This document shows positions 1,384-26,500 of a stretch of 26,500 nt of DNA, piece after piece (position 1 is the first letter of the stretch; each line of letters opens with the position of its first letter). Source of the DNA: Candidatus Zixiibacteriota bacterium. Its GTDB lineage: Bacteria > Zixibacteria > MSB-5A5 > JAABVY01 > JAHJOQ01. The translations under genes were made by a program, and so were the position numbers. The stretch is taken from NCBI GenBank assembly GCA_024275215.1, contig JAJRZO010000053.1:1-26500 (forward strand). Direction: 5' to 3'. The notes below the pieces were generated by a model. The model saw only the letters and a program-made list of their open reading frames with translations. It ran no database searches and was not told where the DNA came from.

Positions 1384-1385
1384 CA

Positions 1386-2753: not shown

Positions 2754-2836
2754 GCAGCCGGGATGAGTTTTGAAAAACGAACGATAATAACTGTTTGCTG
2801 TAAGGTTGTGATGCAGAGCATCGAAAGCCGATTATA

Positions 2837-3550
2837 ATGAAACCACGTATTCTGATAATCATACCAGCGTACAATGAATCCGAGAATATCGGCAGAGTCA
2901 TTGATGATATTCGTGAGCACCTGCCCGATACAGAACTTATCGTGGTAAATGATTGCTCATCAGATGACACCGAAGCGGCGGTTATTCGCGCGGGCGAAAA
3001 AGTACTGTCGCTGCCGTTCAATCTTGGAATCGGGGGCGCGGTTCAAACCGGACTCAGATATGCCCGCGATCGGAGATTCGACATCGCTTTGCAGGTTGAC
3101 GGTGACGGTCAGCATCCCGCAAGCGAAATAGACAAGATCATAGCTCCGATACTCGACAGTAAAGCTGATGTAGTGATAGGGTCGCGATTCCTTGGTGAGG
3201 GCAAGTTCAAATCATCGTTCAGCAGGAGAATCGGCATAAGGATAATTTCGTTGTTTAATTCGATCCTGACAGGCAGGAAAATCACGGATAACACTTCCGG
3301 ATTTCGCGCATACAACAAGGCGGCAATCGCATTTCTGGCGGACTATTACCCGCAGGATTATCCCGAACCGGTAGCTATCATCGACTTGTTCAAAAATGGG
3401 TTCCGGATAATAGAAGTCCCTGTGGTGATGCGCGAACGTGAAGCAGGGATCTCATCGATCGGAGCTTTTGGTTCGATGTACTATATGATCAAAGTCGTTG
3501 TCGCTAACCTGATAGCATTTACGAGAAAATCAATCAGCAGGGAGAAATGA
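2837..3550 (+). CDS. GT2 family glycosyltransferase, polyprenol-phosphate sugar synthase-like (DPM1/GtrB-like)
   Basis: IIIPAYNE, VVNDCSSDDT, NLGIGGAVQTG, QVDGDGQH (DxD), VIGSRF and DNTSGFRAY motifs. Confidence 0.9.
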   Translation: MKPRILIIIPAYNESENIGRVIDDIREHLPDTELIVVNDCSSDDTEAAVIRAGEKVLSLPFNLGIGGAVQTGLRYARDRRFDIALQVDGDGQHPASEIDKIIAPILDSKADVVIGSRFLGEGKFKSSFSRRIGIRIISLFNSILTGRKITDNTSGFRAYNKAAIAFLADYYPQDYPEPVAIIDLFKNGFRIIEVPVVMREREAGISSIGAFGSMYYMIKVVVANLIAFTRKSISREK

Positions 3551-3909
3551 TTATGGTAAGCCCGTTTCAGGTGGTAGCTATCGTATCGAGTCTGCTGATC
3601 ATCCTCTTCGTGATTTCTCTGATAAGAAAGCGTAAATTGCGCGAGGAATACTCGATTCTCTGGATAATCGGCGGGCTGGTGCTGATAGTATTTTCGATTT
3701 GGCGCGATCTTGTAGACATTATAGCAAGAATGGCAGGGGTTGCGTATCCTCCGGCAGTACTGCTGCTGATCGGGATTTTCTTTGCAGTGCTCATGTTCCT
3801 GCATTTCACTGTTGTCATATCGAGACAGGAAGATCGGAATAAAGCACTCGCACAGGAAATTGCGCTGCTCAAGAATCGAATCAAGGAACTCGAAAAGAAG
3901 TCCGAATAA
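3547..3909 (+). CDS. DUF2304-like small membrane protein (three TM helices plus C-terminal coiled coil)
   Basis: 120 aa with the typical pattern IRKRKLREEYSILW...GVAYPPAVLL...LAQEIALL. ATGA overlap with the GT2 stop. Confidence 0.85.
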   Translation: MIMVSPFQVVAIVSSLLIILFVISLIRKRKLREEYSILWIIGGLVLIVFSIWRDLVDIIARMAGVAYPPAVLLLIGIFFAVLMFLHFTVVISRQEDRNKALAQEIALLKNRIKELEKKSE

Positions 3910-3964
3910 CTGCGGCGCAGCAGCTTCGAGCCTTTACACTGCAATCTTGTACGGAGCAGACAGA

Positions 3965-5623: not shown

Positions 5624-7155
5624 CGACTTGGATCACTGTCATGTCTGTTATAGATGGTCCTGCTCAAATCAATCACAGTACAAATTGAATCGCTATAAAC
5701 AAACCCATCCGACATAGCCATGAAAGGTTTCGGGAGTCCCTCTCCGTAAGTGGTAACAACAAGATAATCGTAATATGGCAGCACTTGCATGAATTGTGAT
5801 GTGTCTGATGGTAACCATGCTTCATGAAGTCGGGGCAATTTCAGGCTCGGTTTGACACCAGCCACCTGCGGTTGATCAGTAAACAGGAACGGGCTGAATC
5901 CACCGTATTCGAGGTGATAGTAAGATATCGCATGCATCATATACGGCACATTACTCTCAAGAAAAGCATTGCTGACAGGGAAAATCCTGCTGCCTGAAGG
6001 TATTGTGGCAGATAATGTATTGACATAGCCGGCAGTAAGCCGGTTGATCAATCTCGTATGAATCGTGCGCTGACCGATGGAAATCACTGACAACACCACG
6101 GCTATGATAATTACCAGTTTTCTGGATATTTCCTTCCTGATAACAAATGACCCGACCACAGAGACAGCTCCAAAAACAGCCAGCCTCGAACTCAATTCCC
6201 ATCCCCCAATGAACAAGCTTCTTGGCACTATGACAGATGCAGCCCATACGGCGATTCCGAAATATAAAAGAAATCCTCTATTGATGATCTTCTCTTTGAA
6301 GATCACGAGCACTATGAAAAACATTCCAAGCAACCCGAATCTGACGGCATCGAAAACTGCTATTTTTGTAATGAAGAACCGTATTGCTCCGGTAAACTGA
6401 TGGAAAAGAGTGCTGTAAACTGCCAGAGTATTCGACGAGGCAACAAGATCACCGCTATTCAACATTCGCATTGTATAGAATGCAAGCAAGACAAGGGAGG
6501 GTGCAAGAATGAGTGTCAAGTATGCCATTTGTGACAGCAGGGGAACCTCAGATCGCTTTGGATCATCATGCGTGTACCGATTCGACCAGATCAGAGCAAG
6601 TATCCCGATTCCGTATGCGGCAAAGTTCATAAAGTGGCTCAGGTAGATTAGCAAACTTACTGCAGAAGAAAGCAACACCAGCCTCAATGGAAAGCCGCGC
6701 CTCATGACGCGCTTGAGGACTGCAAGGCCACAGAATACCAGAGGAATCCCAATTACATAAGGTATAAACCCAAAATCGAAGAAATACGTGTAGATAAATG
6801 CGAACGAAAAAAGCGAAAGAAACCTGTTGTCCGGATTGAACTCATTATAAAACCAGCGAACACTCAGGGGAAGACCTGTCACATACAGCCCAAGAACTAA
6901 TTTGGTGGCAACCAGGTAGCCAAGAAGTCTCACTAACGGATACATTACGAGGTAAAAAAGTATATATGGTGACACCACCCAATCCGCCGACAGGAATTGC
7001 GTGTTCAATACATCGGCATGCAGAGCTGCCAGCAAAATATGATTTGGCAAATCGACAGATGGAATATACTTAAACGCAAGCAGGGGGAAAAGGCTGGCAA
7101 CACACAGGACAGCGAATAGTAAATCTTCTAATTTATTTTTCAAGTCTCCCCACAC
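5620..7155 (-). CDS. Polytopic membrane protein of unknown function, GT-C-like topology
   Basis: 511-aa ORF with a GTG start, many TM segments, first-loop motif PSVDLPNH, GFIPY and a soluble C-terminal region. The CDS is solid; the function is inferred. Confidence 0.55.
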   Translation of the reverse strand: MWGDLKNKLEDLLFAVLCVASLFPLLAFKYIPSVDLPNHILLAALHADVLNTQFLSADWVVSPYILFYLVMYPLVRLLGYLVATKLVLGLYVTGLPLSVRWFYNEFNPDNRFLSLFSFAFIYTYFFDFGFIPYVIGIPLVFCGLAVLKRVMRRGFPLRLVLLSSAVSLLIYLSHFMNFAAYGIGILALIWSNRYTHDDPKRSEVPLLSQMAYLTLILAPSLVLLAFYTMRMLNSGDLVASSNTLAVYSTLFHQFTGAIRFFITKIAVFDAVRFGLLGMFFIVLVIFKEKIINRGFLLYFGIAVWAASVIVPRSLFIGGWELSSRLAVFGAVSVVGSFVIRKEISRKLVIIIAVVLSVISIGQRTIHTRLINRLTAGYVNTLSATIPSGSRIFPVSNAFLESNVPYMMHAISYYHLEYGGFSPFLFTDQPQVAGVKPSLKLPRLHEAWLPSDTSQFMQVLPYYDYLVVTTYGEGLPKPFMAMSDGFVYSDSICTVIDLSRTIYNRHDSDPSR

Positions 7156-7594
7156 ATCAAACAGTGATCTTGCCGACTGAACAAGACATACGAAGGAACT
7201 AACATACTGTAGTATCTCGAAATATGCAAGCTACAGATGCACAACTGCCGGACCCACATCCTCGCCGGGATCATACTATATTATTAGACAATAAGTTATA
7301 AATAACTGCCGCCAGCCGGCAGATATGGGAATGTATTTTCTACATTACAGGTAGACATTTAGTTCAGTTTCTGATCAATTTCCATAGGATGAACAGGCTA
7401 CATTGGATTTTTGTTGCAAAGTGAAATTATCATTCGTAGATATCCTGTTGACATTACACGCCATAGGGCACCGTTGATAAACATCGTGGACTGGTACGTA
7501 TTCTGCGGTGAAGTATGGCTGAGTCTTCGCCGATTCTAAGGTGTAGAGTTTATATATTTGTAACAACGTTCCTGGACATACAGAGGCATAAGCT

Positions 7595-10500
7595 ATGATT
7601 AAAAGAGTGTTCCTATCGCTTATAATATTCAGTATCTGCGTAATTCCGGCAGACGCGGGTACGGTTTATTATGTAACCAAGTCAGGCAGTGATTCCTACA
7701 ACGGTCGCTCATGGTCTGCGGCGTGGGAGACTCTGGACAAAGTCAACAACATGGTTCAGCCCGGTGACACAGTTTTCTTCGGGACAGGTATATGGTACAA
7801 CTCCATGATTAATCCACCTCCTGGCGGAGATGCCAACAATGTCACGGTCTATGCCTGCTCCACATTTTCAGAAGCAAGCCGGGGACTTGCGAAGATTTAC
7901 GGGGGCGATCTCTTAACAGGGTGGTCTGTCTATAGCGGTAACATCTATAAGAAGATTTGGGATGGGCCAAGGACCTATGTTTTAGGGCAAAACAATCGAC
8001 TTCTGATACCGGTTTCATCAGCCGGGAGCATTACTCAGCCGGGGCAATTTCACTTTGATGAAGGCTCACAGACTGTCTATGCCTGGCTTTATGGTTCTGC
8101 GAATCCCAATAATGAAACAATGATCATCGCCCGCAAACAGGCGGTAGTGTTTAATCAGGAGAATACCGACTACATCAGGATATGGGGATTGGCGCTGGGT
8201 TATGGCAAGCCCGAAGTCATCTCTTATGCAGCAAAATGTAAATACACTTCAATTGAGCATTGCGACATATACTGCGGAGGATATGAAACCGACGGAAATG
8301 GTGGAGGAATACTGTATTATGCTTATGATGGAGGAAAGAATGCGGCAGACAGCTCGACATACGGCAGATACAACAAAGTCATAGCATGTACGATCGGCAA
8401 CCTGATGGAGGAACGTGGATCAGCATACAGTCATGGCATCGCAACATATTGTGAACAATATGTTTTGATCGAATCGTGTTATGTTTACCCCCCGATAGGG
8501 AACGGAATCTACTTCAAAGACAGGCTCGAATCTCAAACGCATATTGGAAATGTCGCTAAGTTTAACACGATTTATGGCACACAGCAATCTGCGATAATGT
8601 GGACGGCTCATGCCTACCAAGACAGTGCGTATGGCAACTTCATCTATGATTGCCACATTGGAATCATGAACTGGGGAAGTGCAACACCGCCCTTTGAAGG
8701 CCATATGTTCATTGCTAACAATACAATATATAATGTGGAATGCAAGGGGATCGCGCTCATTGAGAATGAATCCGGAGACTGTGGAGACAACAACATAGTG
8801 AAATACAACATCGTGGCTGGTACCGATCTGAGCGGTTGCGATGAGGATCAAGAGATCGTCGGTTTTGAGTATGTAAGTCCCCCATGCTATGAATCTTATA
8901 CGATTGATTCCAATATGTATTATGATGTCACAGACAATTTCCCCTGTGCCAGTGGAAACGAGTTCAGTATATGGCAGGGTTCATGCGGATACGATGAACA
9001 TGGGTTTTTTGGTACCAATCCCGGATTCGTTGATCCCGGATCGGGTGATTTCTCCAGACCCGGAGCCTCACCTGAGATGAACAGAGCAGACTACGGTGAT
9101 CGACAATGGACTCTGTGGGGTGCATGGCAGCCTTCTGGTGATTGTCCGACACCGAATGCCCCATCTCTTGTAAGCCCGTCAAATGGTGCGACCGGCCTTA
9201 GTCAGCCCGTCAATCTGGACTGGAGCAATGTAAGTGGTGCAACACTCTATCAGGTACAAGTCGATGACAATGCGAGCTTTGGTAGTCCGGAAATAAACGC
9301 CCAGCCAGTTTCTTCGAGTTATGGCGCTTCGGGACTGGATGAGCAAACTACCTACTACTGGCGCGCGCGGGCATATAACAGTTGCGGATGGGGAACCTGG
9401 AGTCTGATACGAATTTTTACCGTTGAGGAGGGGGGGTGTCCTCTTCCACCACCACCAACTCTTGCTTCGCCTGCCAATGGCGCATCAGATCTTGTTCAAC
9501 CGATCAATCTCGACTGGTATGATGTAAGTGGCGTTACCCTCTATCAGGTTCAGGTGGATAACAATCCTGATTTCAGCAATCCGGAGATTGATATTCAGCC
9601 ATCATCTTCGGGTTACACTGCCTCAGGTCTTGCAGAAGGGACAACCTACTACTGGCGTGCGCGGGCATATAACAGTTGCGGCTGGGGAAACTGGAGCGAT
9701 ACGAGGAATCTAACCACTGAAGAAGGCGGCTGTCCGCCACCATCCTCGCCAATACTGGATATACCTGCTGACGGAGCATCGAACCTCAGTGTACCGGTAC
9801 TTCTTGACTGGTATGATGTCAGCGGCGCTTCGCTTTATCAGGTTCAGGTAGATGACAATTCAGATTTCAGCAGCCCCCGTATCAGCGTACAGCCATCATC
9901 ATCATCCTACAGCGCCTATGGTCTGGATTCCGGGATGATGTTCTACTGGCGTGTTAGAGCTTACAATGAATGCGGCTGGGGAAGCTGGGGACCTGTGCGA
10001 AGTTTCACTATTGAGGGAGATTGCAACCCGCCACAACCGCCGGCATATCAGAGTCCTCCAAATGGCCTCTCGAACGTAGCCCAGCCGGTACCATTGAATT
10101 GGAGTGATGCCACAGGTGCTACTAAATACCAGTTGCAGGTCGATGAAAACTCAGGATTCATGAATCCGGAAGTCGATGTCGAACCGGTAGAGTCACAGTA
10201 CAGCGTGGATGGCCTGATGCCTTTGACCTACTACTACTGGCGGGTCAGATCATATAACTCCTGCGGTTGGGGAAGCTGGACATCTATCAGGTATTTTGTC
10301 ACTGATTCTCATGGCGGTTCCGATAATACGCCTCCTGTCATCTCAAATGTTTACGCAGATGATACTACATCTACTACAGCTACTGTCCATTGGACTACCG
10401 ACGAACTTGCCACATCGAGAGTATTTTATGCTGGCGGACTCTCCTCAGGTGACACCACAGATATTAACGAAAACTATGTCTATACTCACACTGTAATAGT

Positions 10501-16651: not shown

Positions 16652-16668
16652 TGGGCACTATGTTTGCT
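16652..16668 (+). promoter_or_regulatory. Candidate sigma54 (-24/-12) promoter
   Basis: TGGGCACTATGTTTGCT: GG at 16654-55 and GC at 16666-67 with exactly 10 nt between, matching GGCAC-N5-TTGCW. It lies about 38 nt before ATG 16706, which has AGGTGA at 16694-16699. Confidence 0.55.
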
Positions 16669-16705: not shown

Positions 16706-17098
16706 ATGAATAATAATGTACCGGGTATTGTAGTACTGGACGACAATGCCACATATTTGGCTTCAATATCGGGAATTCTTGGGTCGCGATATAGATTGAA
16801 ATCTTTTAGCTCCAGTAAAATGCTCATTGATTATCTATCGCTGAACCCCGCAGACCTCCTTGTCATGTCTGCTAACCTGAAGGAAGACTATAGCTTCCTT
16901 GTCATGCTTGAAGTCAGTGAGCGTTGGCCCAAACTACCAATTGTGATAACAACCGATTGTAGCATGCAGTATCTCCGCATCACTATGAATTATCGCGAAA
17001 TAACAGAAGGTGTAGTGTGGATGCCAGTCTCGGCGGATCATCTTCTCGAAGTTATAGATCAGGCTCTTAGCGATCCTGTCGCCACCAGTGATTCGTAA
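16706..17098 (+). CDS. Single-domain CheY-like receiver protein, degenerate (pseudo-receiver)
   Basis: Receiver-like pattern IVVLDD...DLLVMS...LPIVITT...WMP...LLEVIDQAL. The expected phospho-Asp position is Ser and the conserved Lys of KP is Met. Confidence 0.7.
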   Translation: MNNNVPGIVVLDDNATYLASISGILGSRYRLKSFSSSKMLIDYLSLNPADLLVMSANLKEDYSFLVMLEVSERWPKLPIVITTDCSMQYLRITMNYREITEGVVWMPVSADHLLEVIDQALSDPVATSDS

Positions 17099-17283: not shown

Positions 17284-19881
17284 ATGTACTCAATATCCAC
17301 TGCTAACCGCAAGCCGTCGCTATCAAAGACGTATTATCTAATATCAGTTTTCCTGCTAATCATTACATTGGTTTTGTGTAATGTTGCGAGTGGGGAAAAT
17401 GATGAAACCTGCCTTGATTGCCACAGCGACAGAACTCTCGAGTCCGAGTCCGGCAAAAATGTCTTTGCAGATACCTCCGTGCTAAGCAATTCTGTCCACG
17501 GCGGACTTGCATGTCTTGATTGTCATAATCAGGATGGCGCTGATTTCGAGGATTTTCCTCACTTCAAAACATATAAGCCTGTCAACTGCGAGGATTGTCA
17601 TGCCAAGCAGGGATTTGTCTATATGGAGTATTTCAACAAAATGCTCCGGAAGAAAGGGACAAAAAACATCCCGGACTGCAAGGAATGTCATGGCACACAT
17701 GATGCCCACAAGCAACCCGGAATGGAATTGGTCTGTGATCGATGTCACAAGGAAATAGCGAAAGATTACAGGCAGAGCTACCATTTCAAGAAATATCCTG
17801 AGGATCCCCGCAAATACCCGATCTGCACTACCTGCCACGACGCTCACTTCAAGTCGAAGCGAGAGGTCATGTCGGAAATAGAATACAAACAGGAAATCGT
17901 GGATATTTGCTCAAAATGTCACATGCGGGACATTGAAACTTATGTTCACTCTCGTCATTTCCATGAATTGGAAGCAGGAAACACGAAAGCGCCCGTATGT
18001 ACGAGTTGCCATGAGAAACACGCAATACGTAAGCCTTCGGATCCGAAATCGAAAGTGCACTCATCCAACATCACTGACGTCTGCAATAGCTGCCATCCCG
18101 GACACAAGGAAAGTCTCCATGTCGATCCCACCATGAACGCATCTGCGATCACATGCGCGTCATGTCACACCGGCCACCAGACTGATATGGCCTCAATCGA
18201 CCAGCAGGTATTCAAAGAAGGAGGGGTTTACAACCAGTGCAATGTTTGCCATAGAAACGAACGACACAGGAAAGAGAACCTTGCTCATGGGAAACTGATG
18301 CTGATTGACCAAAACGGCGACCAGGCCAACTGCACCAAATGCCATGTATACCACTGGAATCTGCCCGGTTTGGACAATGACCTCATAAAACACCGAGGGA
18401 TCAAATGCGTGAACTGTCATGCTGAACAGCAGAGACAGTACCGGGGATCGATTCATGCCAAAGCCAGAGCACAGGGCATTATGGAAGCGCCGAGTTGTGT
18501 TGATTGTCACGGAGAAACATATGTAAAGAAAACTTCTGAACAGTTCACTCCGGAAGGAATAGTAAAGCTCTGTTCATCATGTCACTCAGACAAAGACAGG
18601 ATGCTTAAATTCGGAATAAATACCCATGTTGTCGAGGGATATAAAGAGACATATCACGGTAAACTCTTTGAGACAGGCACTCGCGAAGTCAAATTTGCCG
18701 TTTGCACAAATTGTCATGGTTCCCACACGATTCGCGCTCCGGATGAGCCGGAGTCAAGTGTAAACAGATCTCATATTGTAAAGACATGCCAACAGTGTCA
18801 TCCTAAAGCAAATGACCGGTTTGTATCATACCTCGTACATCCTGTCGCAGCTACCGACGAGGAGCTTGAGCAATCGCAGGAATTTAACGGGACAGGCCGT
18901 GTTGATACTACCGAAACTGGTCAAAACAGCGGTGGCGGGAACTGGCAAAAATTCAATTCGATCATTACGCATCTTATGACAATCCTGCTTGTGGCAGTTC
19001 TCGGCGTTTTTGGAATTCACACTGCGATGTGGTTTCAGCGCGGGATTAGAGGGCGGGTGAAACAAAGACAAAAGTGCTACAGACGAGTCGACGGTTTTCA
19101 CCGATTCCTGCATGTTCTTGTCAATATCAGCTTTCTCACTCTTGCTTTCACAGGTCTGCCACAGTCTTATGCGCATACCGACCTGGCAAAATGGTTGTTT
19201 AATAATGTCATGTCCATACAAACAGCACAGAGACTTCATCTTATCGCCGCATTTATTACATTTACATATTTCATTGCTCATGTTATATATCTTATTGTTC
19301 GAATAAGGAAAAGCGGATTTAAGTCTTTGATGAGTGGTCCAAATACTATGGTATTCCGCAAGAAGGATTTTCACGATGCTGTTGATCACGTGAAGTGGTT
19401 TTTCGGCAAAGGTCCGGAACCCAGGTTTGATCGCTGGACATATTGGGAGAAATTCGACTACTCGGCTGTATTCTGGGGCGTATTTGTGATTGGACTGTCG
19501 GGACTAATACGATGGCAGGATGAATTCTTTGGCGGCCTTCTGGGTGGAGGGATTGTCAGCCTTGCGGACACTATTCACAAGGAAGAAGCGCTTCTGGCTA
19601 CCGCCTTCATATTCATCGTTCACTTTTTCAACACTCACTTGCGTGCAAGTAAATTCCCAATGGATGTATCGATTTACACAGGAAGAATCTCCGAGAAAGA
19701 ATTCAGGGAAGAACGATCAACTGAATATGAACGAGCAGTGAAAAATGGAACTCTTCAATCACTGGAAGTAAAACCACCGGGTGTTTTTCAAACAGTGTTA
19801 GCTTACTTATGGGGGACTATTGCACTTGTAGTAGGATTCTTCCTGCTGGCGCTGATCATAATAGGCCAGTTTACAGCATAA
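17284..19881 (+). CDS. Multiheme cytochrome c (17 CxxCH) fused to a membrane cytochrome b domain, CbcL-like quinol:cytochrome c oxidoreductase
   Basis: N-terminal signal or anchor, 17 CxxCH motifs (CLDCH ... CQQCH), then about 6 TM segments carrying His residues (HRFLH, RLH...AH, IHKEE...VHFFNTH) and RFDRWTYWEKFDYSAVFWG. Confidence 0.85.
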   Translation: MYSISTANRKPSLSKTYYLISVFLLIITLVLCNVASGENDETCLDCHSDRTLESESGKNVFADTSVLSNSVHGGLACLDCHNQDGADFEDFPHFKTYKPVNCEDCHAKQGFVYMEYFNKMLRKKGTKNIPDCKECHGTHDAHKQPGMELVCDRCHKEIAKDYRQSYHFKKYPEDPRKYPICTTCHDAHFKSKREVMSEIEYKQEIVDICSKCHMRDIETYVHSRHFHELEAGNTKAPVCTSCHEKHAIRKPSDPKSKVHSSNITDVCNSCHPGHKESLHVDPTMNASAITCASCHTGHQTDMASIDQQVFKEGGVYNQCNVCHRNERHRKENLAHGKLMLIDQNGDQANCTKCHVYHWNLPGLDNDLIKHRGIKCVNCHAEQQRQYRGSIHAKARAQGIMEAPSCVDCHGETYVKKTSEQFTPEGIVKLCSSCHSDKDRMLKFGINTHVVEGYKETYHGKLFETGTREVKFAVCTNCHGSHTIRAPDEPESSVNRSHIVKTCQQCHPKANDRFVSYLVHPVAATDEELEQSQEFNGTGRVDTTETGQNSGGGNWQKFNSIITHLMTILLVAVLGVFGIHTAMWFQRGIRGRVKQRQKCYRRVDGFHRFLHVLVNISFLTLAFTGLPQSYAHTDLAKWLFNNVMSIQTAQRLHLIAAFITFTYFIAHVIYLIVRIRKSGFKSLMSGPNTMVFRKKDFHDAVDHVKWFFGKGPEPRFDRWTYWEKFDYSAVFWGVFVIGLSGLIRWQDEFFGGLLGGGIVSLADTIHKEEALLATAFIFIVHFFNTHLRASKFPMDVSIYTGRISEKEFREERSTEYERAVKNGTLQSLEVKPPGVFQTVLAYLWGTIALVVGFFLLALIIIGQFTA

Positions 19882-19929
19882 GGATTTCAAAATGATAGTA
19901 ATATCCATGAAAATTGTGAGGACAAAAAA

Positions 19930-20676
19930 TTGAATAAACTCGGAATCCCGGGACAGATAGTACCGCTGGCAATTATTGGTGTTGTGGTCATTGCGGCATT
20001 CATTGCGGCACGAATGCTGTTTGTTCCTGATACTTTTGGAGAATACGGGCACTACCGTGCCAGCGCTGTTGAGGAAATCGCCTCGCAGGAAATAGTCTAT
20101 GCCGGTCACGAGGCTTGCAACGATTGCCACGACGATATCTTTGAAACAAAGCAGGAATCGAAGCACAGAGATGTCTCGTGTGAAGCATGCCATGGTCCGG
20201 CTGCAGACCACATTGAAGCTCCGGATGAATTCACCCCTACAGCTCCGCGCGGGCGAGGATACTGCCCTTTATGTCACGGCTATAACCCGTCTCGACCATC
20301 CGGCTTTCCACAAATCTTACCCAAGACCCACAATCCCGGTAAAGCATGTATGACATGTCATGATCCACACAGCCCTGTACTCCCGCACGCGCCGGAGGAT
20401 TGTTCTGCCTGTCACCGGGACATTGCCAATGTAAAACAGGTATCACACCATGCCACTCTGTCGTGCAGAACATGCCACGACGTTCCTGATGAACACCTCA
20501 TTCAGCCCAAGTTCGTAAGGGCTGAAAAACCGGCCAATAGGGAACGGTGTGGACAATGTCACGACCGTGATTCAGATAGCCCCAGAGAGATACCGAGAAT
20601 CAATATCGAAACACACGGAGAACGAAATCTATGCTGGGAATGTCATTATCCTCACTATCCGGAGGTTGGTAAATGA
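19930..20676 (+). CDS. Membrane-anchored octaheme cytochrome c
   Basis: TTG start after a GAGGA site, one N-terminal TM helix, VPDTFGEYGHYR and 8 CxxCH motifs (CNDCH, CEACH, CPLCH, CMTCH, CSACH, CRTCH, CGQCH, CWECH). Confidence 0.9.
   Translation: MNKLGIPGQIVPLAIIGVVVIAAFIAARMLFVPDTFGEYGHYRASAVEEIASQEIVYAGHEACNDCHDDIFETKQESKHRDVSCEACHGPAADHIEAPDEFTPTAPRGRGYCPLCHGYNPSRPSGFPQILPKTHNPGKACMTCHDPHSPVLPHAPEDCSACHRDIANVKQVSHHATLSCRTCHDVPDEHLIQPKFVRAEKPANRERCGQCHDRDSDSPREIPRINIETHGERNLCWECHYPHYPEVGK
20116..20660 (+). repeat. Internal duplication of a tetraheme unit (period 285 bp, 95 aa)
   Basis: Both units read CxxCH-x11-H-x4-CxxCH-x5-H-x17-CxxCH-x17-H-x5-CxxCH-xPH with identical spacing. They start at 20116 and 20401. 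Confidence 0.9.
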
Positions 20677-21449
20677 TTGATAACAATAATAAGCCTGTGA
20701 ATCGCCGGGGTTTTCTCGGATCATGCTCCAGATTCATCGCTGCGGGACTGGGAGCAATAAGTGTCTTCAAATTCGGTGGTTCCCTGTGGGGACAGGAAAA
20801 CGGTCAGTATAACCCGGCGGAACACAACTACGCTATGGGTATTGATGTCCACAAGTGTATCGGCTGTGGAAGATGCGCCGACGCATGCAAGCGAGAAAAC
20901 GATGTTACGAGAGAACCATACTATTTCAGAACATGGGTAGAAAGATATGTCATACCATCAGAGGGTGAGACAGTTGTCGACAGCCCGAACGGCGGGATTG
21001 ATGGTTTCCCGGAAACAGTCGACAAAAATGATGTTTTGCGGACATTCTTCGTTCCCAAACTGTGTAATCACTGTTCTAATCCACCATGCGTTCAGGTCTG
21101 CCCGGTTGGAGCAACATTCGCCAGCCGTGATGGTGTGGTTCTTGTCGATGAAAAATACTGTGTCGGTTGTCGTTACTGTATTCAGGCATGTCCCTATGGT
21201 GCTCGGTATTTTCATCCTGAAAGCAAGACGGCTGACAAGTGCACGTTTTGCTACCACCGGATTACAAAAGGTCTTCCTCCTGCATGTGTGGAGGTCTGTC
21301 CAACACATGCACGGGTTTTCGGTGAAATCGGTCAGTTGAGTAGTCCGCTCAGGAGATTCGTTCGCTTCAACGACCTGACAGTGTTGAAGCCGTGGTTGAA
21401 TACGAAACCAAAAGTTTATTATGCTGGCGCAGACGGAGAGGTTCGGTAG
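20673..21449 (+). CDS. TAT-exported 4Fe-4S protein, NrfC/DsrO/PsrB/HmcB family
   Basis: Twin-arginine signal NRRGFLG. Cys clusters CIGCGRCADAC, CNHCSNPPCVQVCP, CVGCRYCIQACP and CTFC...CVEVCP fit four [4Fe-4S] clusters. Confidence 0.92.
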   Translation: MIDNNNKPVNRRGFLGSCSRFIAAGLGAISVFKFGGSLWGQENGQYNPAEHNYAMGIDVHKCIGCGRCADACKRENDVTREPYYFRTWVERYVIPSEGETVVDSPNGGIDGFPETVDKNDVLRTFFVPKLCNHCSNPPCVQVCPVGATFASRDGVVLVDEKYCVGCRYCIQACPYGARYFHPESKTADKCTFCYHRITKGLPPACVEVCPTHARVFGEIGQLSSPLRRFVRFNDLTVLKPWLNTKPKVYYAGADGEVR

Positions 21450-21452
21450 TCC

Positions 21453-22673
21453 ATGGAAAACCTGGTAACAACAATGGCAGGCAATTTCGGGGGGATCACT
21501 GGTTATATCTACCCGAATGAATATGAACTACACTGGCAACTTCTTATCGTCATCTATCCTTATTTGACAGGGTTGGTTGCCGGTGCTTTTATCCTCGCTT
21601 CACTGGAAAGATTATTCAGGGTGAATGAGCTGCAGCCAGTGTACAGACTATCGCTGTTGACTGCACTCTCGTTTATGATAGTTGCACCACTGCCGCTGCT
21701 TGCACATCTGGGGCATCCTGAACGATCCTTTGAGATGTTCCTTACTCCACATGTCCAGTCAGCGATGGCAATGTTCGGATTTGTATATGGCTGGTATCTC
21801 ATGGTAGTCCTGCTTCTGGAGATATGGCTGGATTACCGCAGAGATATAGTCTTGTTCGGACGGGAGAAGAAGGGTATAAGCAAGTATTTCTATAAGTTTC
21901 TTTCTCTCGGGTTCTCAGACATCTCGGATAAATCGTTGCTATTCGATGACAAGCTCGGAAGATTCATCACAATAATAGGTATCCCATCCGCTTTCCTGCT
22001 ACACGGCTATGTCGGGTTCATATTCGGTTCAGTTAAGGCAAACCCATGGTGGGGCAGCGTTCTTATGCCTATCGTGTTTCTTTTCTCAGCGATTGTGTCA
22101 GGAATCGCTCTAATGATACTTGTCTATATGGTATCTTCTCTTTTCCGTTGGAAACAGATGAAGATGGCGTGCCTTAACAAGCTGGCAGAATTTCTGATAT
22201 ACGCAATGATTGTTGATTTTTCGCTGGAGTTGCTTGATTTCATCCACAGATTGTATCAATCCGAAGAATCGATTAGTATTCTGTCGGACATGATTTCAAG
22301 CCGGTTGTTCGTCAGTTTGATCGTGACCCAGATTCTTCTCGGCACGATTTTACCGCTTGTTTCGCTGATTTCGGCCAGATTCGGCAAATTCCCTGATGAA
22401 TTGAAACGAATGCTCTACTTCATTGCGGCAATCCTTGTACAGGTCGGAATATTCAGCACTCGCTGGAATGTCGTGATCGGGGGACAACTGTTTTCGAAAA
22501 GCTTGAGAGGTTTGACCTTCTACAAAATTGAGCTTTTTGGATTAGAAGGCTTGCTAATTACGATCGCACTGCTCATATTGCCGCTGGTTATCTTGTATGT
22601 TCTGGTCAAAGTGCTGCCACCATGGTCTGATGTGGTAGCCGATCAGACACAATCGCAAACGCAACCAAATTGA
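21453..22673 (+). CDS. NrfD/PsrC/DsrP family integral membrane quinol-interacting subunit
   Basis: W..LIVIYPYLTGLVAGAF, LLAHLGHPER, SAMA and RWNVVIGGQ motifs, about 10 hydrophobic segments. Lies 3 nt after the Fe-S gene. Confidence 0.9.
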   Translation: MENLVTTMAGNFGGITGYIYPNEYELHWQLLIVIYPYLTGLVAGAFILASLERLFRVNELQPVYRLSLLTALSFMIVAPLPLLAHLGHPERSFEMFLTPHVQSAMAMFGFVYGWYLMVVLLLEIWLDYRRDIVLFGREKKGISKYFYKFLSLGFSDISDKSLLFDDKLGRFITIIGIPSAFLLHGYVGFIFGSVKANPWWGSVLMPIVFLFSAIVSGIALMILVYMVSSLFRWKQMKMACLNKLAEFLIYAMIVDFSLELLDFIHRLYQSEESISILSDMISSRLFVSLIVTQILLGTILPLVSLISARFGKFPDELKRMLYFIAAILVQVGIFSTRWNVVIGGQLFSKSLRGLTFYKIELFGLEGLLITIALLILPLVILYVLVKVLPPWSDVVADQTQSQTQPN

Positions 22674-22712
22674 TAACCGTAGTGTTGTACATGTGAACTC
22701 AAGCTGAGGACT

Positions 22713-24227
22713 ATGATCGTGCAGTTGAAATTTCCCCGTTTGACCCACAATAGAATCAGTTACATAGGAGCAATCGGCGCTATTTTCGTTGGTATATCTA
22801 TCCTGCTGATGTTCATCACCAACAGCATTCTGGAAGATACCAACCCATATTTCGGAATCCTCCTGTATGTGATCATGCCGACAGCTCTTATTTTTTCGTT
22901 GATACTGATTCCCATCGGTATGATTCGCGAGTGGCACAGATGGCGCCACAGTGACAAACCTGTCCCTGTCAAATGGCCGATTATCGATCTTAACCGCGGC
23001 GGACATAGAAACGCGATGATGGTTTTTGTCTTCGGGACAATTGGATTCGTGCTCGTGAGTTCCTTTGGAGTATATCAAGCGTATCATTTCAGCGAATCGG
23101 TAGAATTTTGCGGCACGACATGCCACACAGTGATGAATCCCCAATATACGGCTTACCAGGAATCTCCGCATGCCAAAGTACCCTGCGCATCGTGTCATGT
23201 AGGTTACGGTGCCGGCTGGTACGCCAAGTCAAAGCTGTCGGGAGCATATCAGGTGTACGCAGCTATTGCGAATCGATTTCCTCGTCCCATACCGACTCCG
23301 ATCAAAAATCTCCGACCGGCGCAGGAAACATGCGAACAATGCCACTGGCCGGAAAAAACATACGGCGCCCAGCAGAGACAGTTCAACCACTATATGTATG
23401 ACAAAGAAAACACCCTGTGGAAAATCAATATGCTAATCAAAACCGGCGGTGGTGATCCGCAATCCGAGCACGCATCAGGGATTCATTGGCACATGAATAT
23501 CGGTGTTGAGATCGAGTACATTCCAAGAGATGAGAAACGGCAGGATATTCCATGGGTTAGGGTCACTGATAAGCTTACCAATCGCGTGACAATTTATCAG
23601 GATACTGATAATCCGATGGATCCGGCGAAGATAGAGACTGCCAAAAAGCGTAAGATGGATTGTCTCGACTGCCATAACCGTCCCAGCCACGTATTCAGAA
23701 CCGCCGACTATGCCATTGACAAGATGATTAGCGCCAGGAAGATTGATCGACGGATACCGGAAATAAAACGTATCGCGGTAGAGGCAATGTCGGCTGAATA
23801 TCCGGACAAGAAAACTGCGCTCATGGATATTGCAAATTACATCTCAACGCATTACAGAAACCAAAATGACTCCCTGTACCGCGCGATGCGCACATCGATT
23901 GACAAATCTATCGTGGCTGTTCAGGAGGCATATTCTAAAAACATCTTCCCTGAAATGAAAGTACGATGGACTGAATATCCCAACAATATAGGTCACTTCA
24001 CAAATGTCGGTTGTATGCGCTGTCATGCCGGCAATCACGAAAGTGAAGATGGACTCAAGATCACCCATGACTGTAACGCCTGCCATACTATTCTGGCGGA
24101 AGGCACCGGTGAAGATTACGAGGCCACAACGTCACCTGATGGATTAGAGTTTCGCCACCCTGAAGATATCGATGAGGCGTGGCGCGAAATGGGATGCTAT
24201 GAATGCCATGACGGCACTCAGCCGTAG
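22713..24227 (+). CDS. NapC/NirT-like heptaheme membrane cytochrome c, ImcH-like
   Basis: Three N-terminal TM helices (NPYFGI motif). One CxxxCH (CGTTCH) plus six CxxCH (CASCH, CEQCH, CLDCH, CMRCH, CNACH, CYECH). RPIPTPIKNLRPA, GIHWH and FPEMKV.W..YPNNIGH motifs. 504 aa. Confidence 0.85.
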   Translation: MIVQLKFPRLTHNRISYIGAIGAIFVGISILLMFITNSILEDTNPYFGILLYVIMPTALIFSLILIPIGMIREWHRWRHSDKPVPVKWPIIDLNRGGHRNAMMVFVFGTIGFVLVSSFGVYQAYHFSESVEFCGTTCHTVMNPQYTAYQESPHAKVPCASCHVGYGAGWYAKSKLSGAYQVYAAIANRFPRPIPTPIKNLRPAQETCEQCHWPEKTYGAQQRQFNHYMYDKENTLWKINMLIKTGGGDPQSEHASGIHWHMNIGVEIEYIPRDEKRQDIPWVRVTDKLTNRVTIYQDTDNPMDPAKIETAKKRKMDCLDCHNRPSHVFRTADYAIDKMISARKIDRRIPEIKRIAVEAMSAEYPDKKTALMDIANYISTHYRNQNDSLYRAMRTSIDKSIVAVQEAYSKNIFPEMKVRWTEYPNNIGHFTNVGCMRCHAGNHESEDGLKITHDCNACHTILAEGTGEDYEATTSPDGLEFRHPEDIDEAWREMGCYECHDGTQP

Positions 24228-24277: not shown

Positions 24278-24313
24278 ATCGGCCCCACCATCTGTGGTGA
24301 GGCCGATTTTTTT
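24278..24313 (+). terminator. Rho-independent terminator between the two convergent cytochrome operons
   Basis: ATCGGCCCCACCA-TCTG-TGGTGAGGCCGAT, a 13-bp stem with one mismatch, followed by a T run on the + strand. Confidence 0.8.
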
Positions 24314-24325
24314 ATATGGCAGAAG

Positions 24326-24847
24326 TTAGCCCTTTTTTGCAGGCTTCTTCGAAGCAATCTTGTGAACGCCTTTTGCTTTCATCTTTTCAAAGTCGAATTT
24401 CTCTTTTGCCTGAAATTCTTTAGGCACATTCTCATTGTGACATTTCATACAAGTTTTTTCATCGGGAATGATAAGCCCGTTTTCTATAGCCAGCTTCCTG
24501 TCCTGCATGATTTTCTTCTTCTTATAATCATTTCCCGGACCATGACATGCTTCGCACTGAACCCCTTGCAGAAGTTCGCCTTTTGCTGTTGTTCCGGTTG
24601 AATGACAAGCAACGCATTTTTTGTCCTTCTGATTCTCAGGCTTCAAAACATCCCAAGCCTTGGCATGTTTGGTCTCAAGCCAGGAAGGATGTATGCCATC
24701 CTTTTTGTGGCACATTCTGCACTTCTTGACACCAACATAACTGTGTGTGGTTTTGGTTGAATCAGCCTTCTTTGCTTCTCCAGCAAAGGCAGGCATACCA
24801 CACGCTACGGCTAGGTAGATAATTCCCAGCATCAAACAGGTTTTCAT
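24326..24847 (-). CDS. Periplasmic tetraheme cytochrome c, cytochrome c554-like, very Lys-rich
   Basis: Signal peptide, YVGVKKCRMCH, W..TKHA, CVACH, GVQCEACHGPG and CMKCH. Strong AGGAGG RBS. Confidence 0.88.
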   Translation of the reverse strand: MKTCLMLGIIYLAVACGMPAFAGEAKKADSTKTTHSYVGVKKCRMCHKKDGIHPSWLETKHAKAWDVLKPENQKDKKCVACHSTGTTAKGELLQGVQCEACHGPGNDYKKKKIMQDRKLAIENGLIIPDEKTCMKCHNENVPKEFQAKEKFDFEKMKAKGVHKIASKKPAKKG

Positions 24848-24968
24848 TACAGCTTTCCTCCTTGTTTTTTCAGTTGATTTCCATTGTTTATTATCTACTA
24901 CATATCAATTTCTAAGTTGTACTTATATTGTGATGATTGGTTCGATCAAAGAGAGTAAACTACAATCC

Positions 24969-26231
24969 TCACTGCTTCTGCTGACGCATATCCGCCTGCC
25001 GAGCCTTCATCCACAGCAATCCTGCAAGCAGGCAAAGAAGTACTACCGAAACAACCAATCCTTTTCGCCTGAAAACATAGCTGTCGAGCAAATCATCGGT
25101 GACGCCATCAGTTTTGAGAACAAGTTCGATTCCTTCTCTTGATATCTTGGTTACCTTTTCGAGATTGAAAGTATGAACCGCAGTTCTTGCCGTGTACTCC
25201 TTCTGTCGGGCATCACGCATGCTGAAAAGCATATTGTCGACATAGAGACCTTTACGATCCGCCTCGTCGATCTTGTTATTGACTTGTGTCATCAGCATAT
25301 TAAGACTATCAAGAGCATTCCGCATCGATTCTGCCGTTTCGATTCCACCAGTACCGTCATCGAGATCATGACACTGTTTACAGACCGACTTCTCACCCTG
25401 CAACATTTCAGTCGTGGGGCGTTCAATACGGTGGTTCGAATGGCAGGTTTCGCAGGCAGGCATCTTCAACATCTCGAAATACTCGAAATGAGTCGAGGCC
25501 TCAAAGTCATCCATATTATTCGCGTGGCAAATACCGCAAACATGATCGATTGAACTGACTTCGGGGGGCACAGCACCATGATTGCCATGACAATCATTGC
25601 ATGCCGGAGCACCCATATCACCATTTTCAAGCAATGCAATCCCATGCACTGAGCGCGAAAAATCTGCAAACTGATCAGTAGGAATCTCATAGTCAGCCAT
25701 ATAGTCCTTATCAGAATGACATCCGGCACAGGTATTTGGTACATTTTGAGCATAAATAGTCGATTTCGGATCATCGGCAGCACGAATTCCGTGAGCAGTA
25801 TGACATGATACGCATTGGGCAGTCTTGCGGTCATGGGCGGCATTTCGGATACCATGCACGGATGTCAGGTATTTGGAATACTGATAGGTCGATAATCCGG
25901 GATCGAACTGCTTCATGAAACTCGGATTGCTATGACACTTTGAGCAAAACTCGGGGATTTCAAGTTCATCAGGAGCGCCGATGAAACCTTTTTCCTCGCT
26001 CATCGCCACCTCTTCATCATCAGAAGTCGGGTCACCGCCGTGACATCCGGCGCATCCCAGCCCTTCCCTGTTGTGAACATCATTCTTGAACAGCGTTGTC
26101 GGTGTGTCAGGCTGGCCTTCATCAAGCTCCATGTGGCATTTCTCACAGGTACTGCCCGGCTCACTCGCAAGCAACTGCGCGGGAGCCGACACGCATAGAA
26201 AAAGCGTAAGGGTTGCAACAAACAGCTTCAT
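24969..26231 (-). CDS. Nonaheme cytochrome c with a helical stalk and C-terminal membrane anchor
   Basis: 9 CxxCH motifs (CEKCH, CAGCH, CSKCH, CVSCH, CAGCH, CNDCH, CGICH, CETCH, CKQCH), a heme-free helical stretch and a TM segment GLVVSVVLLCLLAGLLW. Start set at ATG 26231 (MKLFVATLTLFLCVSAPA signal); 26261 and 26267 are alternatives. Confidence 0.88.
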   Translation of the reverse strand: MKLFVATLTLFLCVSAPAQLLASEPGSTCEKCHMELDEGQPDTPTTLFKNDVHNREGLGCAGCHGGDPTSDDEEVAMSEEKGFIGAPDELEIPEFCSKCHSNPSFMKQFDPGLSTYQYSKYLTSVHGIRNAAHDRKTAQCVSCHTAHGIRAADDPKSTIYAQNVPNTCAGCHSDKDYMADYEIPTDQFADFSRSVHGIALLENGDMGAPACNDCHGNHGAVPPEVSSIDHVCGICHANNMDDFEASTHFEYFEMLKMPACETCHSNHRIERPTTEMLQGEKSVCKQCHDLDDGTGGIETAESMRNALDSLNMLMTQVNNKIDEADRKGLYVDNMLFSMRDARQKEYTARTAVHTFNLEKVTKISREGIELVLKTDGVTDDLLDSYVFRRKGLVVSVVLLCLLAGLLWMKARQADMRQQKQ

Positions 26232-26250
26232 CGCTGCACTAATAGTTCCG

Positions 26251-26499
26251 TCAGGAAACATAACCAAGAACCGTTAAGACAATAATGTAAACCAGAGCGA
26301 AGACGCCAAAATAAGTGACCAATTTGCTCCGCGCTTTATTTTTCTCATCAATATCAAAGAAAGGTATCAAAGTCCAAATAATAGCTCCCAGACCAAATCC
26401 CATAAGTCCGAAAAGTTCGCCTTCAATAAAAAGCACGTGTGCTGGTATATATTTTAATGTCTGGAACATGAACATGAAATACCATTCAGGCTTGATCCC
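26251..26499 (-). CDS. C-terminal part of cytochrome b / subunit IV of a Rieske/cytochrome b (bc-type) complex, truncated by the window end
   Basis: Extending the listed 74-aa ORF to the edge gives GIKPEWYFMFMFQTLKYIP...IPFFD. PEWY is the Qo-site motif; two TM helices follow. Confidence 0.88.
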   Translation of the reverse strand, partial: GIKPEWYFMFMFQTLKYIPAHVLFIEGELFGLMGFGLGAIIWTLIPFFDIDEKNKARSKLVTYFGVFALVYIIVLTVLGYVS

Positions 26500-26500
26500 G

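What the first reader, a model, noticed from the sequence alone, without database searches (positions are those of the whole stretch)
17284..24227. CbcL-like and ImcH-like genes appear to share one operon
Seen: gaps between the five + strand genes are 48, -4, 3 and 39 nt, with RBS-like GAGGA sites, no obvious hairpin between them and one terminator at 24278. Established: in Geobacter sulfurreducens ImcH serves high-potential acceptors, CbcL serves lower-potential ones, and they are encoded apart. Inference: co-transcription here suggests a pre-packaged, redox-potential-spanning cassette, or a physical supercomplex rather than separately regulated routes.
Basis: partly seen in the sequence, partly recalled or inferred. 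Interest (0 to 1): 0.75.

Follow-up and report, generated by a model that had tools for sequence, protein, structure and literature searches.

The report
Three quinol-oxidase modules in one operon
A sediment-type bacterium (Zixibacteria-like genome bin) packs a CbcL-family cytochrome, a cytochrome/iron-sulfur/NrfD trio and an ImcH-family cytochrome into one tight five-gene cluster; the cluster is real, but putting cbcL-like next to imcH-like turns out to be common across many phyla, including Geobacter's own relatives, so it is a variant of a known theme rather than a surprise.

Summary
Observation confirmed. Five + strand genes (17284-24227) have gaps of 48, -4, 3 and 39 nt, Shine-Dalgarno sites before genes 2-5, no hairpin in the gaps, and one strong terminator at 24278-24314.

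The family assignments hold at family level only.
- P0005 has the full ImcH signature: 3 TM helices, CX3CH, six CXXCH at the published spacing, and the conserved Lys/Gln.
- P0001 is a 17-heme cytochrome c fused to a dihaem cytochrome b. Its b domain groups with 9-heme CbcL proteins that carry the Geobacter fingerprint (42-43% identity).
- Neither protein lies inside the narrow Geobacter clade.

cbcL-like/imcH-like linkage is widespread:
- 26 of 49 full-flank loci from at least 10 phyla;
- at least 54 of 146 genomes with an imcH-family gene, among 201 sampled in the window's own phylum;
- two Geobacter-fingerprint genomes;
- published locus tags and a Desulfuromonas soudanensis figure.

G. sulfurreducens expresses both genes constitutively, so co-transcription does not contrast with its regulation. 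Each gene also occurs without the other, which argues against an obligate supercomplex. What is unusual here is the octaheme/NrfC/NrfD trio inserted between them, a set seen in other gene orders in three other phyla. No transcript data were available. Interest is moderate.

The parts
16654..16667 (+). Candidate sigma-54 promoter (GGCAC-N5-TTGC), 39 nt upstream of the receiver-like gene. It may be the start of the transcription unit.
Evidence: It is the only match in the window. Chance expectation is 0.21, and 18 of 100 shuffles give at least one match, so it is not significant on its own. rpoN is present in the genome.
16706..17098 (+). Small receiver-like protein (130 aa), 185 nt upstream of gene 1. 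Whether it belongs to the unit is uncertain.
   Evidence: Pfam Response_reg scores 21.5 bits, below the 30.2 cut-off. It was not found next to cbcL-like genes in relatives.
17284..19881 (+). P0001: 865-aa CbcL/MtrH/MtoC-family protein. It has an N-terminal anchor, 17 CXXCH haems in the periplasmic part, and a C-terminal dihaem cytochrome b domain.
   Evidence: 17 CXXCH motifs and TM segments. PF01292 matches residues 602-780 at 28 bits. H610, H652, H765 and H780 are invariant in 69 b domains. The b domain sits in a starred clade with Geobacter-fingerprint CbcL.
19930..20676 (+). P0002: membrane-anchored octaheme cytochrome c (248 aa, TTG start).
   Evidence: 8 CXXCH motifs and 1 TM segment. 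Cytochrome c7/c3 Pfam hits. Orthologues of 49-71% identity always precede NrfC-NrfD.
20673..21449 (+). P0003: periplasmic NrfC/DsrO/TtrB-like four-cluster ferredoxin with a twin-arginine signal (RRGFL).
   Evidence: Fer4_11 at 101 bits. NCBIfam hits are TtrB at 203 bits and DsrO at 182 bits, both below their cut-offs. The signal is seen in the translation.
21453..22673 (+). P0004: NrfD-family integral membrane quinone-interacting subunit (406 aa, about 8 TM segments).
   Evidence: PF03916 at 125.7 bits. Orthologues of 72-78% identity occur in 48 of 200 genomes of the phylum.
22713..24227 (+). P0005: ImcH-family heptahaem quinol dehydrogenase (504 aa).
   Evidence: 3 TM segments, CX3CH at 133 and CXXCH at 158, 207, 317, 434, 454, 495. 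Published G. sulfurreducens positions are 132, 156, 205, 311, 428, 448, 486. PF03264 scores 34.8 bits. K174 and Q180 are invariant.
24278..24314 (.). Intrinsic terminator shared with the converging - strand operon.
   Evidence: dG -26.2 kcal/mol, z -3.26.
24326..26500 (-). Converging operon: bc-type cytochrome b (C-terminus only, cut by the contig end), a 9-haem cytochrome (24969-26267) and a 4-haem cytochrome (24326-24847). These are conserved neighbours of imcH in relatives.
   Evidence: PF00032 matches 26251-26499. In L092, L098 and L099 the order is cytochrome b -> 9-haem (42-45% identity) -> imcH, with the 4-haem gene (59-64% identity) converging.

Best explanation
The five genes form one transcription unit. 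It co-expresses three autonomous inner-membrane menaquinol:periplasmic-cytochrome oxidoreductase modules:
1. a CbcL-family 17-haem cytochrome c fused to a dihaem cytochrome b;
2. an octahaem c / NrfC ferredoxin / NrfD membrane trio with no catalytic subunit;
3. an ImcH-family NapC/NirT-type heptahaem cytochrome.

Each module takes electrons from the quinol pool by a different membrane chemistry, so each should have a different proton/charge balance. All feed a shared pool of periplasmic multihaem cytochromes that leads to extracellular or high-molecular-weight acceptors. Which module carries the current would be set by thermodynamics at the protein level, as in G. sulfurreducens, and not by separate promoters.

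Shown here: gene anatomy, family membership, intact haem and cluster ligands, and recurrent genomic linkage in many lineages.
Inferred: co-transcription, direction of electron flow, the potential windows, and that the modules act independently.
For: - Operon anatomy.
- Family signatures: together with the published fingerprints.
- b-domain tree: P0001 lies in a starred 41-row clade with the two Geobacter-fingerprint 9-haem CbcL proteins. That clade is separate from a paralogous 26-row clade of 11-17-haem fusions.
- ImcH tree: P0005 lies in a starred 41-row clade of the same family as the Geobacter-fingerprint ImcH proteins.
- Linkage across phyla: of 49 imcH-like loci with at least 5 kb on both sides, 17 have a multihaem-c/cytochrome-b gene within 500 bp on the same strand and 26 have one within 8 kb. 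Chance would give about 1%.
- Linkage in the window's phylum: 146 of the 201 sampled genomes carry an imcH-family gene. In at least 54 of those 146, it lies within 12 kb of a CbcL-type gene (hand tally).
- The same five gene types form tight clusters in other orders in Latescibacterota (L013), Dadabacteria (L037) and Methylomirabilota (L071).
- Partial sets occur in the phylum: cbcL-like -> octahaem -> NrfC -> NrfD in G070 and G113, and imcH divergent from the trio in G080.
- Autonomy of the modules. CbcL-type genes occur in families with no imcH: f12 8/8 against 0/8, f17 10/10 against 0/10. imcH occurs in genomes with no CbcL-type match. The NrfD trio is unlinked to either in most of the 48 genomes that have it.
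Against: - There is no transcript evidence.
- Gene 1 has no Shine-Dalgarno site, and no convincing promoter was found directly upstream of it.
- Function is extrapolated from proteins only 38-43% identical.
- P0001 has 17 haems, not 9, and its lineage sits on a long branch. Its potential window may therefore differ from that of CbcL.
- No outer-membrane conduit is encoded in the window, so an extracellular acceptor is an assumption.
- The nearest relative genome (same genus, 99% complete) lacks the CbcL-type and NrfD orthologues. The island may therefore be acquired, or the contig may be mis-binned.
Confidence: 0.6

Rival explanations
1. The five proteins, or the first four, assemble into one Hmc/DsrMKJOP-like transmembrane megacomplex. 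Such a complex would hold both a cytochrome-b-type and an NrfD-type quinone site, forming a redox loop or an energy-coupled gearbox.
For: - Known Hmc and Dsr complexes combine a multihaem c, an NrfC-like ferredoxin, an NrfD-like subunit and a cytochrome b (established knowledge).
- P0003 scores 182 bits against DsrO and 108 bits against HmcB. P0001 and P0002 weakly hit HmcA.
- cbcL-like -> octahaem -> NrfC -> NrfD lie on one strand in G070 and G113 even without imcH.
- The five-gene set recurs in three other phyla.
Against: - Gene order is shuffled between lineages.
- The NrfD trio lies away from cbcL-like and imcH genes in most of the 48 genomes that hold it.
- Many genomes have one partner only.
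- All NCBIfam scores are far below the Hmc/Dsr cut-offs.
- The b domain is of the HydC/FdnI type (PF01292), not the NarI type of HmcE/DsrM.
- No multimer prediction could be run.
Confidence: 0.15
2. The cluster works in the opposite direction. Electrons taken up from extracellular Fe(II), reduced humics or a partner are delivered to the quinone pool, so the modules act as quinone reductases, as proposed for MtoC in iron oxidisers.
For: The CbcL/MtrH/MtoC family includes members from Fe(II) oxidisers, and no sequence feature separates the two directions. A bc-type cytochrome b operon converges on the cluster.
Against: ImcH homologues have so far been found only in organisms that reduce extracellular acceptors. 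P0001's b domain groups with the Geobacter CbcL type. MtoC/MtrH sequences themselves were not in the tree.
Confidence: 0.12
3. The genes are neighbours but not one transcript. Internal promoters give separately controlled expression, for example of imcH alone, as in monocistronic G. sulfurreducens imcH.
For: A weak sigma-70-like 9/12 match lies in the 48-nt gap. Promoter consensus for this phylum is unknown. imcH is monocistronic in G. sulfurreducens. imcH sits behind different upstream genes in relatives.
Against: The gaps are -4 to 48 nt, with no hairpins and a single terminator. Promoter-like sites are not enriched.
Confidence: 0.13

Closest known systems
ImcH (GSU3259) of Geobacter sulfurreducens and the ImcH family as delimited by Levar et al. 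2014 and Zhong & Shi 2018
   Same: About 500 aa, three N-terminal TM helices, and an atypical CX3CH first haem next to TM3. Six CXXCH motifs lie at nearly the same positions. There is a NapC/NirT-homologous region. The Lys and distal Gln of haem 1 are conserved at a +1 offset.
   Different: Only 38-41% identical to Geobacter-fingerprint ImcH, and in a different, starred clade made up mostly of Zixibacteria, Ignavibacteria, Latescibacteria and Acidobacteria sequences. It is the last gene of an operon, not monocistronic. The position matching Tyr188 of the G. sulfurreducens protein is not conserved.
CbcL (GSU0274) and the CbcL/MtrH/MtoC family (Zhong & Shi 2018)
   Same: One polypeptide with a periplasmic multihaem c domain and a C-terminal HydC/FdnI-like dihaem b domain. 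Four His residues are invariant. The b domain is 42-43% identical to Geobacter-fingerprint CbcL and shares a starred clade with it. Published family members have 3-23 haems and 416-1034 aa.
   Different: It has 17 haems, not 9, and 865 aa, not 619. It sits on a long branch with orthologues of about 70% identity from one family of the same phylum. A second copy of 76% identity lies on another contig of the same bin.
Multihaem c / NrfC / NrfD modules: E. coli NrfBCD, DsrJOP, HmcABC, NhcABC, and Geobacter Cbc4 (CbcSTU, recalled from memory, not tested)
   Same: The trio comprises a membrane-anchored multihaem c, a Tat-exported four-cluster ferredoxin and an NrfD membrane subunit. No catalytic molybdo- or sirohaem subunit lies nearby.
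   Different: All curated NCBIfam scores are below their cut-offs: DsrO 182 against 200, DsrP 46 against 350, NrfC 151 against 378. The cytochrome is an octahaem. The trio is embedded between cbcL-like and imcH-like genes.
Published cbcL-imcH proximity in Desulfuromonadales
   Same: D. soudanensis DSOUD_0207 (ImcH) and DSOUD_0214 (CbcL) are drawn in one figure. Locus tags are adjacent in three metagenome bins listed by Zhong & Shi. The unnamed Geobacter-fingerprint genomes L106 and L107 have cbcL directly upstream of imcH, with gaps of 362 and 183 nt.
   Different: Those pairs have the 9-haem CbcL and no NrfCD trio between the two genes. None of the papers read comments on the linkage as a pattern.

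Membership tests
ImcH family | Three N-terminal transmembrane helices, total length about 450-520 aa | tested here: met
   Hydropathy peaks at 18-36, 48-66 and 102-120; length 504 aa. The published G. sulfurreducens TM positions are 13-35, 45-67 and 100-122.
ImcH family | Atypical CX3CH first haem motif next to TM3, followed by 5-9 CXXCH motifs | tested here: met
   CGTTCH at 133-138, plus CXXCH at 158, 207, 317, 434, 454 and 495. The published G. sulfurreducens spacing is 156, 205, 311, 428, 448, 486.
ImcH family | NapC/NirT-homologous quinol-binding region with the conserved Glu, Lys and distal Gln of haem 1 (E127, K173, Q179 in GSU3259) | tested here: met
   PF03264 scores 34.8 bits against a cut-off of 24.1. 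NrfH structure 2J7A matches at E 2.4e-4. K174 and Q180 are invariant and E128 is 80% conserved in 79 homologues. The position matching Y188 is not conserved.
ImcH family | Placement inside the Geobacter/Desulfuromonadales ImcH clade | tested here: not met
   P0005 lies in a separate starred 41-row clade and is 38-41% identical to the Geobacter-fingerprint sequences.
ImcH family | Required for reduction of acceptors above about -0.1 V | not testable with these tools
   This needs genetics or electrochemistry.
CbcL/MtrH/MtoC family | N-terminal periplasmic multihaem c domain fused to a C-terminal HydC/FdnI-type cytochrome b domain with about six TM helices | tested here: met
   17 CXXCH motifs lie before residue 510. 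TM-like segments are at 560, 608, 654, 724 and 842, plus a sixth, less hydrophobic helix that carries H765 and H780. PF01292 matches residues 602-780 at 28.1 bits, just under the 30.1 cut-off.
CbcL/MtrH/MtoC family | Conserved His ligands for two b haems | tested here: met
   H610, H652, H765 and H780 are invariant in 69 b domains, including the Geobacter-fingerprint CbcL proteins.
CbcL/MtrH/MtoC family | Nine c haems, as in GSU0274 and its Desulfuromonadales orthologues | tested here: not met
   P0001 has 17 CXXCH motifs. The wider published family spans 3-23.
CbcL/MtrH/MtoC family | b domain groups with bona fide CbcL, not with other cytochrome b paralogues | tested here: met
   A starred (99) 41-row clade holds P0001, the 19-haem forms and the two 9-haem Geobacter-fingerprint CbcL proteins. 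A paralogous 26-row clade is separate. This was a quick tree, and P0001's lineage has a long stem (1.09).
NrfCD-type quinone module (Nrf/Dsr/Hmc-like) | Tat-exported four-cluster ferredoxin next to an NrfD-family membrane protein and a c-type cytochrome | tested here: met
   PF13247 at 101 bits, PF03916 at 126 bits, an RRGFL signal, and an octahaem gene overlapping by 4 nt.
NrfCD-type quinone module (Nrf/Dsr/Hmc-like) | Equivalog-level match to a named system (DsrOP, NrfCD, TtrBC, HmcBC) | tested here: not met
   All NCBIfam scores are below the curated cut-offs.
Operon | One transcript covering all five genes | not testable with these tools
   No RNA-holding run was listed. Only the anatomy supports it.

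The most novel reading that the evidence does not exclude
The cytochrome-b-type, NrfD-type and NapC/NirT-type quinol sites encoded here assemble into one membrane machine, an Hmc/Dsr-like megacomplex with ImcH docked. That machine would shift its proton/electron stoichiometry with acceptor potential. The repeated co-location of these genes across more than ten phyla would then reflect physical interaction rather than mere co-regulation.
Probability: 0.12. Interest if true: 0.8.

Novelty: new variant of a known kind. Interest (0 to 1): 0.42.

Why it matters
ImcH and CbcL are the main markers used to predict extracellular electron transfer and its redox range from metagenomes. This analysis adds two things.

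1. The two families, often together with an octahaem/NrfC/NrfD trio and a bc-type cytochrome b operon, form a recurrent but shuffled respiratory island in Zixibacteria-like, Latescibacteria, Acidobacteria, KSB1, Calditrichia, Dadabacteria, Methylomirabilota and Geobacter-clade genomes. The separated arrangement in G. sulfurreducens is therefore not the general rule.

2. It supplies natural operons in which to test whether these modules interact, and candidate proteins (17- and 19-haem CbcL forms) for biochemistry.

It does not by itself show a new mechanism.

Tried and rejected
**Named G. sulfurreducens sequences**
- I could not fetch them. No NCBIfam model exists for ImcH or CbcL, and no solved structures exist.
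- Geobacter is not among the control genomes.
- The top 120 of two protein searches held no Geobacter names.
- Fifty-percent-cluster representatives carry no names, and the ten I looked up were not Geobacter.
- Primer tables in the papers are images.
Their proteins reproduce the published haem-motif positions of Geobacter/Desulfuromonas CbcL and ImcH exactly, after start-codon offsets.

**Transcript evidence**
- No RNA holder was listed for the stretch. Only one DNA run held a small share of its words.

**Hypotheses checked and dropped**
- G155 and G034 do not have the same five-gene order. The 2.7-3.3 kb between cbcL-like and imcH there hold other cytochromes, not the NrfCD trio.
- The receiver-like gene and the sigma-54-like motif are not conserved upstream of cbcL-like genes in relatives. 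The motif alone is not significant.
- The promoter/terminator scan missed the real terminator and gave no enrichment of promoters.

**Not attempted**
Single-chain folds were not run because they would not bear on the question.

**Hand tally**
- The tally of linkage in the phylum uses only the roughly 150 best-scoring places printed in each. It is therefore a lower bound and was not scripted.

Full report
**What is in the sequence**

The window is the whole of contig C520 of a 2.7-Mb, 541-contig genome bin. Titles of the most similar public genomes read Zixiibacteriota or Ignavibacteria.

Five + strand ORFs lie at 17284-19881, 19930-20676, 20673-21449, 21453-22673 and 22713-24227. The gaps are 48, -4, 3 and 39 nt. 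Genes 2-5 have GAGGA/GGAGG-type ribosome-binding sites; gene 1 has none. The two longer gaps fold no better than shuffled sequence (z -0.32 and +1.20). The stretch after gene 5 holds a strong hairpin plus T7 at 24278-24314 (dG -26.2 kcal/mol, z -3.26). This terminator is shared with a converging - strand operon.

Genes upstream of 16400 are potassium transporters and are unrelated. A 130-aa degenerate receiver-like gene sits 185 nt upstream of gene 1. It is preceded by a single GGCAC-N5-TTGC motif, which is not significant on its own, although rpoN is present in the genome. Co-transcription remains an inference, because no RNA data could be found.

**What the proteins are**

- **P0005** (504 aa) has three N-terminal TM helices, a CX3CH motif at 133 and six CXXCH motifs at 158, 207, 317, 434, 454 and 495. 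Zhong & Shi (PMC6295460, Table S3) list G. sulfurreducens ImcH (507 aa) with motifs at 132, 156, 205, 311, 428, 448 and 486 and TM helices at 13-35, 45-67 and 100-122. Pfam finds the NapC/NirT region. The residues reported as conserved around haem 1 of ImcH (E127, K173, Q179; bioRxiv 10.1101/2023.05.03.539133) correspond at a +1 offset to E128, K174 and Q180. The last two are invariant in 79 homologues.
- **P0001** (865 aa) has 17 CXXCH motifs followed by a membrane domain. That domain matches PF01292 (HydC/FdnI-type cytochrome b) and carries four invariant histidines. This is the architecture of the published CbcL/MtrH/MtoC family, which spans 3-23 haems and 416-1034 aa.
- **P0002-P0004** are an anchored octahaem cytochrome, a Tat-exported NrfC/DsrO-like ferredoxin and an NrfD-family membrane protein. 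All are below the equivalog cut-offs of named systems.

**Phylogeny against Geobacter**

Named Geobacter sequences could not be fetched. A search of an unnamed phylum did yield two genomes whose proteins reproduce the published fingerprints exactly, after start-codon offsets.

- L107 carries a 9-haem CbcL with motifs at 34, 57, 82, 105, 129, 158, 186, 229 and 257, and an ImcH with motifs at 156, 205, 311, 428, 448 and 486.
- L106 carries a CbcL whose motifs are identical to the Desulfuromonas sp. C0614 row of Table S2.

P0001's b domain is 42-43% identical to these CbcL proteins, and P0005 is 38-41% identical to these ImcH proteins.

In a b-domain tree, P0001 falls in a starred 41-row clade. 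That clade also holds its second copy on contig C410 (76% identity) and three orthologues of about 70% identity. It further holds the Geobacter-fingerprint CbcL proteins and the 19-haem forms. A paralogous 26-row clade of 11-17-haem fusions is separate. In the ImcH tree, P0005 lies in a starred 41-row clade distinct from the five-row Geobacter clade. Both proteins are therefore family members but lie outside the narrow Geobacter clades.

**How unusual the linkage is**

It is not unusual.

- **Across phyla.** I examined 80 imcH-like loci from many phyla. Of these, 49 have at least 5 kb on both sides. Among those 49, 17 carry a multihaem-c/cytochrome-b gene within 500 bp on the same strand, and 26 carry one within 8 kb. 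Chance predicts roughly 1%.
- **In the window's phylum.** 146 of 201 sampled genomes have an imcH-family gene and 166 have a CbcL-type b domain. In at least 54 genomes the two lie within 12 kb on one contig (hand tally of the places printed).
- **In the Geobacter clade.** cbcL sits directly upstream of imcH in L106 and L107.
- **In published data.** The supplementary tables show adjacent locus tags for three Desulfuromonadales-type bins and near-adjacent tags for three more. Desulfuromonas soudanensis has the two genes 7 apart, drawn in one figure (PMC4914508).
- **In the text of the literature.** None of the papers I read comments on this as a pattern.

**What is particular to this window**

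The octahaem/NrfC/NrfD trio lies between the two genes. Orthologues of the NrfD subunit (72-78% identity) occur in 48 of 200 genomes of the phylum, mostly elsewhere in the genome. In some genomes the trio is linked to one partner:

- In G070 and G113 it follows a cbcL-like gene on the same strand.
- In G080 it is divergent from imcH.

All five gene types form tight clusters, in other orders, in a Latescibacterota genome (L013), a Dadabacteria genome (L037) and a Methylomirabilota genome (L071).

A further recurrent neighbour is a bc-type cytochrome b -> 9-haem cytochrome pair directly upstream of imcH, with a converging 4-haem gene (L092, L098, L099). In the window this same set converges on imcH from the - strand. 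The region is thus one arrangement of a shuffled respiratory island.

**Mechanism**

The best reading is co-expression of three autonomous quinol:periplasmic-cytochrome oxidoreductases that differ in membrane chemistry. The current would be partitioned by thermodynamics.

Autonomy is supported by genomes that have one module without the others.

An Hmc/Dsr-like megacomplex has precedent in its composition, and the G070/G113 arrangement fits it. However, shuffled gene order, frequent separation of the genes and low family scores argue against it.

Reverse electron flow (quinone reduction) cannot be excluded from sequence alone.

**Caveats**

- The trees are quick searches, and P0001's lineage has a long stem.
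- The Geobacter anchors are identified by fingerprint, not by name.
- The same-genus genome (99% complete) has no CbcL-type or NrfD orthologue and only a 36%-identical ImcH paralogue. The island may be horizontally acquired, or the contig mis-binned.

**Verdict**

This is a real, well-formed five-gene cluster of known families, and a new arrangement of a recurrent theme. The cbcL-imcH linkage itself is common and already visible in published data. The systematic pattern and the embedded NrfCD trio are modestly new. The supercomplex idea is untested and currently disfavoured.

Noticed in passing
window 24326-26500 (- strand); L092, L098, L099: A bc-type cytochrome b (only its C-terminus is on the contig), a 9-haem cytochrome and a 4-haem cytochrome converge on imcH. 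In three genomes of the phylum the order is cytochrome b -> 9-haem -> imcH on one strand, with the 4-haem gene converging. There, imcH is the tail of a bc-type operon.
   Followed up: partly
L003 (G000 contig C410) 1-3696: A second copy of the 17-haem CbcL-like gene (76% identical) lies on another contig of the same bin. It is followed 21 nt later by an MtrC/MtrF-like multihaem cytochrome gene that runs off the contig.
   Followed up: partly
metagenome contig holding P0278 (no DNA returned): An imcH-family gene lies directly downstream of an MtrA-like decahaem gene and an MtrB/PioB porin gene. Zhong & Shi state that no mtrAB is found next to imcH.
   Followed up: no
L103 (G269:C12) 1239-9426: In a genome whose ImcH falls in the Geobacter clade, two tandem tetrahaem/NrfC/NrfD trios are divergent from a 92-aa trihaem (c7-like) gene followed by imcH.
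   Followed up: no
L117 (G113:C98) 5858-7852: A 664-aa, 17-haem protein with weak ImcH similarity (26% over 231 aa) sits between a 19-haem cbcL-like gene and the octahaem/NrfC/NrfD trio.
   Followed up: no
whole genome G000 against G017 (same genus): The 99%-complete same-genus genome has no CbcL-type b domain, no close NrfD orthologue and only a 36%-identical ImcH paralogue. P0001's nearest relatives (about 70% identity) are in another family of the phylum. This suggests transfer within the phylum or mis-binning of contig C520.
   Followed up: partly
window 16654-16667 and 16706-17098: A sigma-54-type -24/-12 motif precedes a receiver-like gene that scores below the Pfam cut-off. In Geobacter, cbcBA is sigma-54 dependent, so this could be a parallel. 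The motif alone is not significant.
   Followed up: partly
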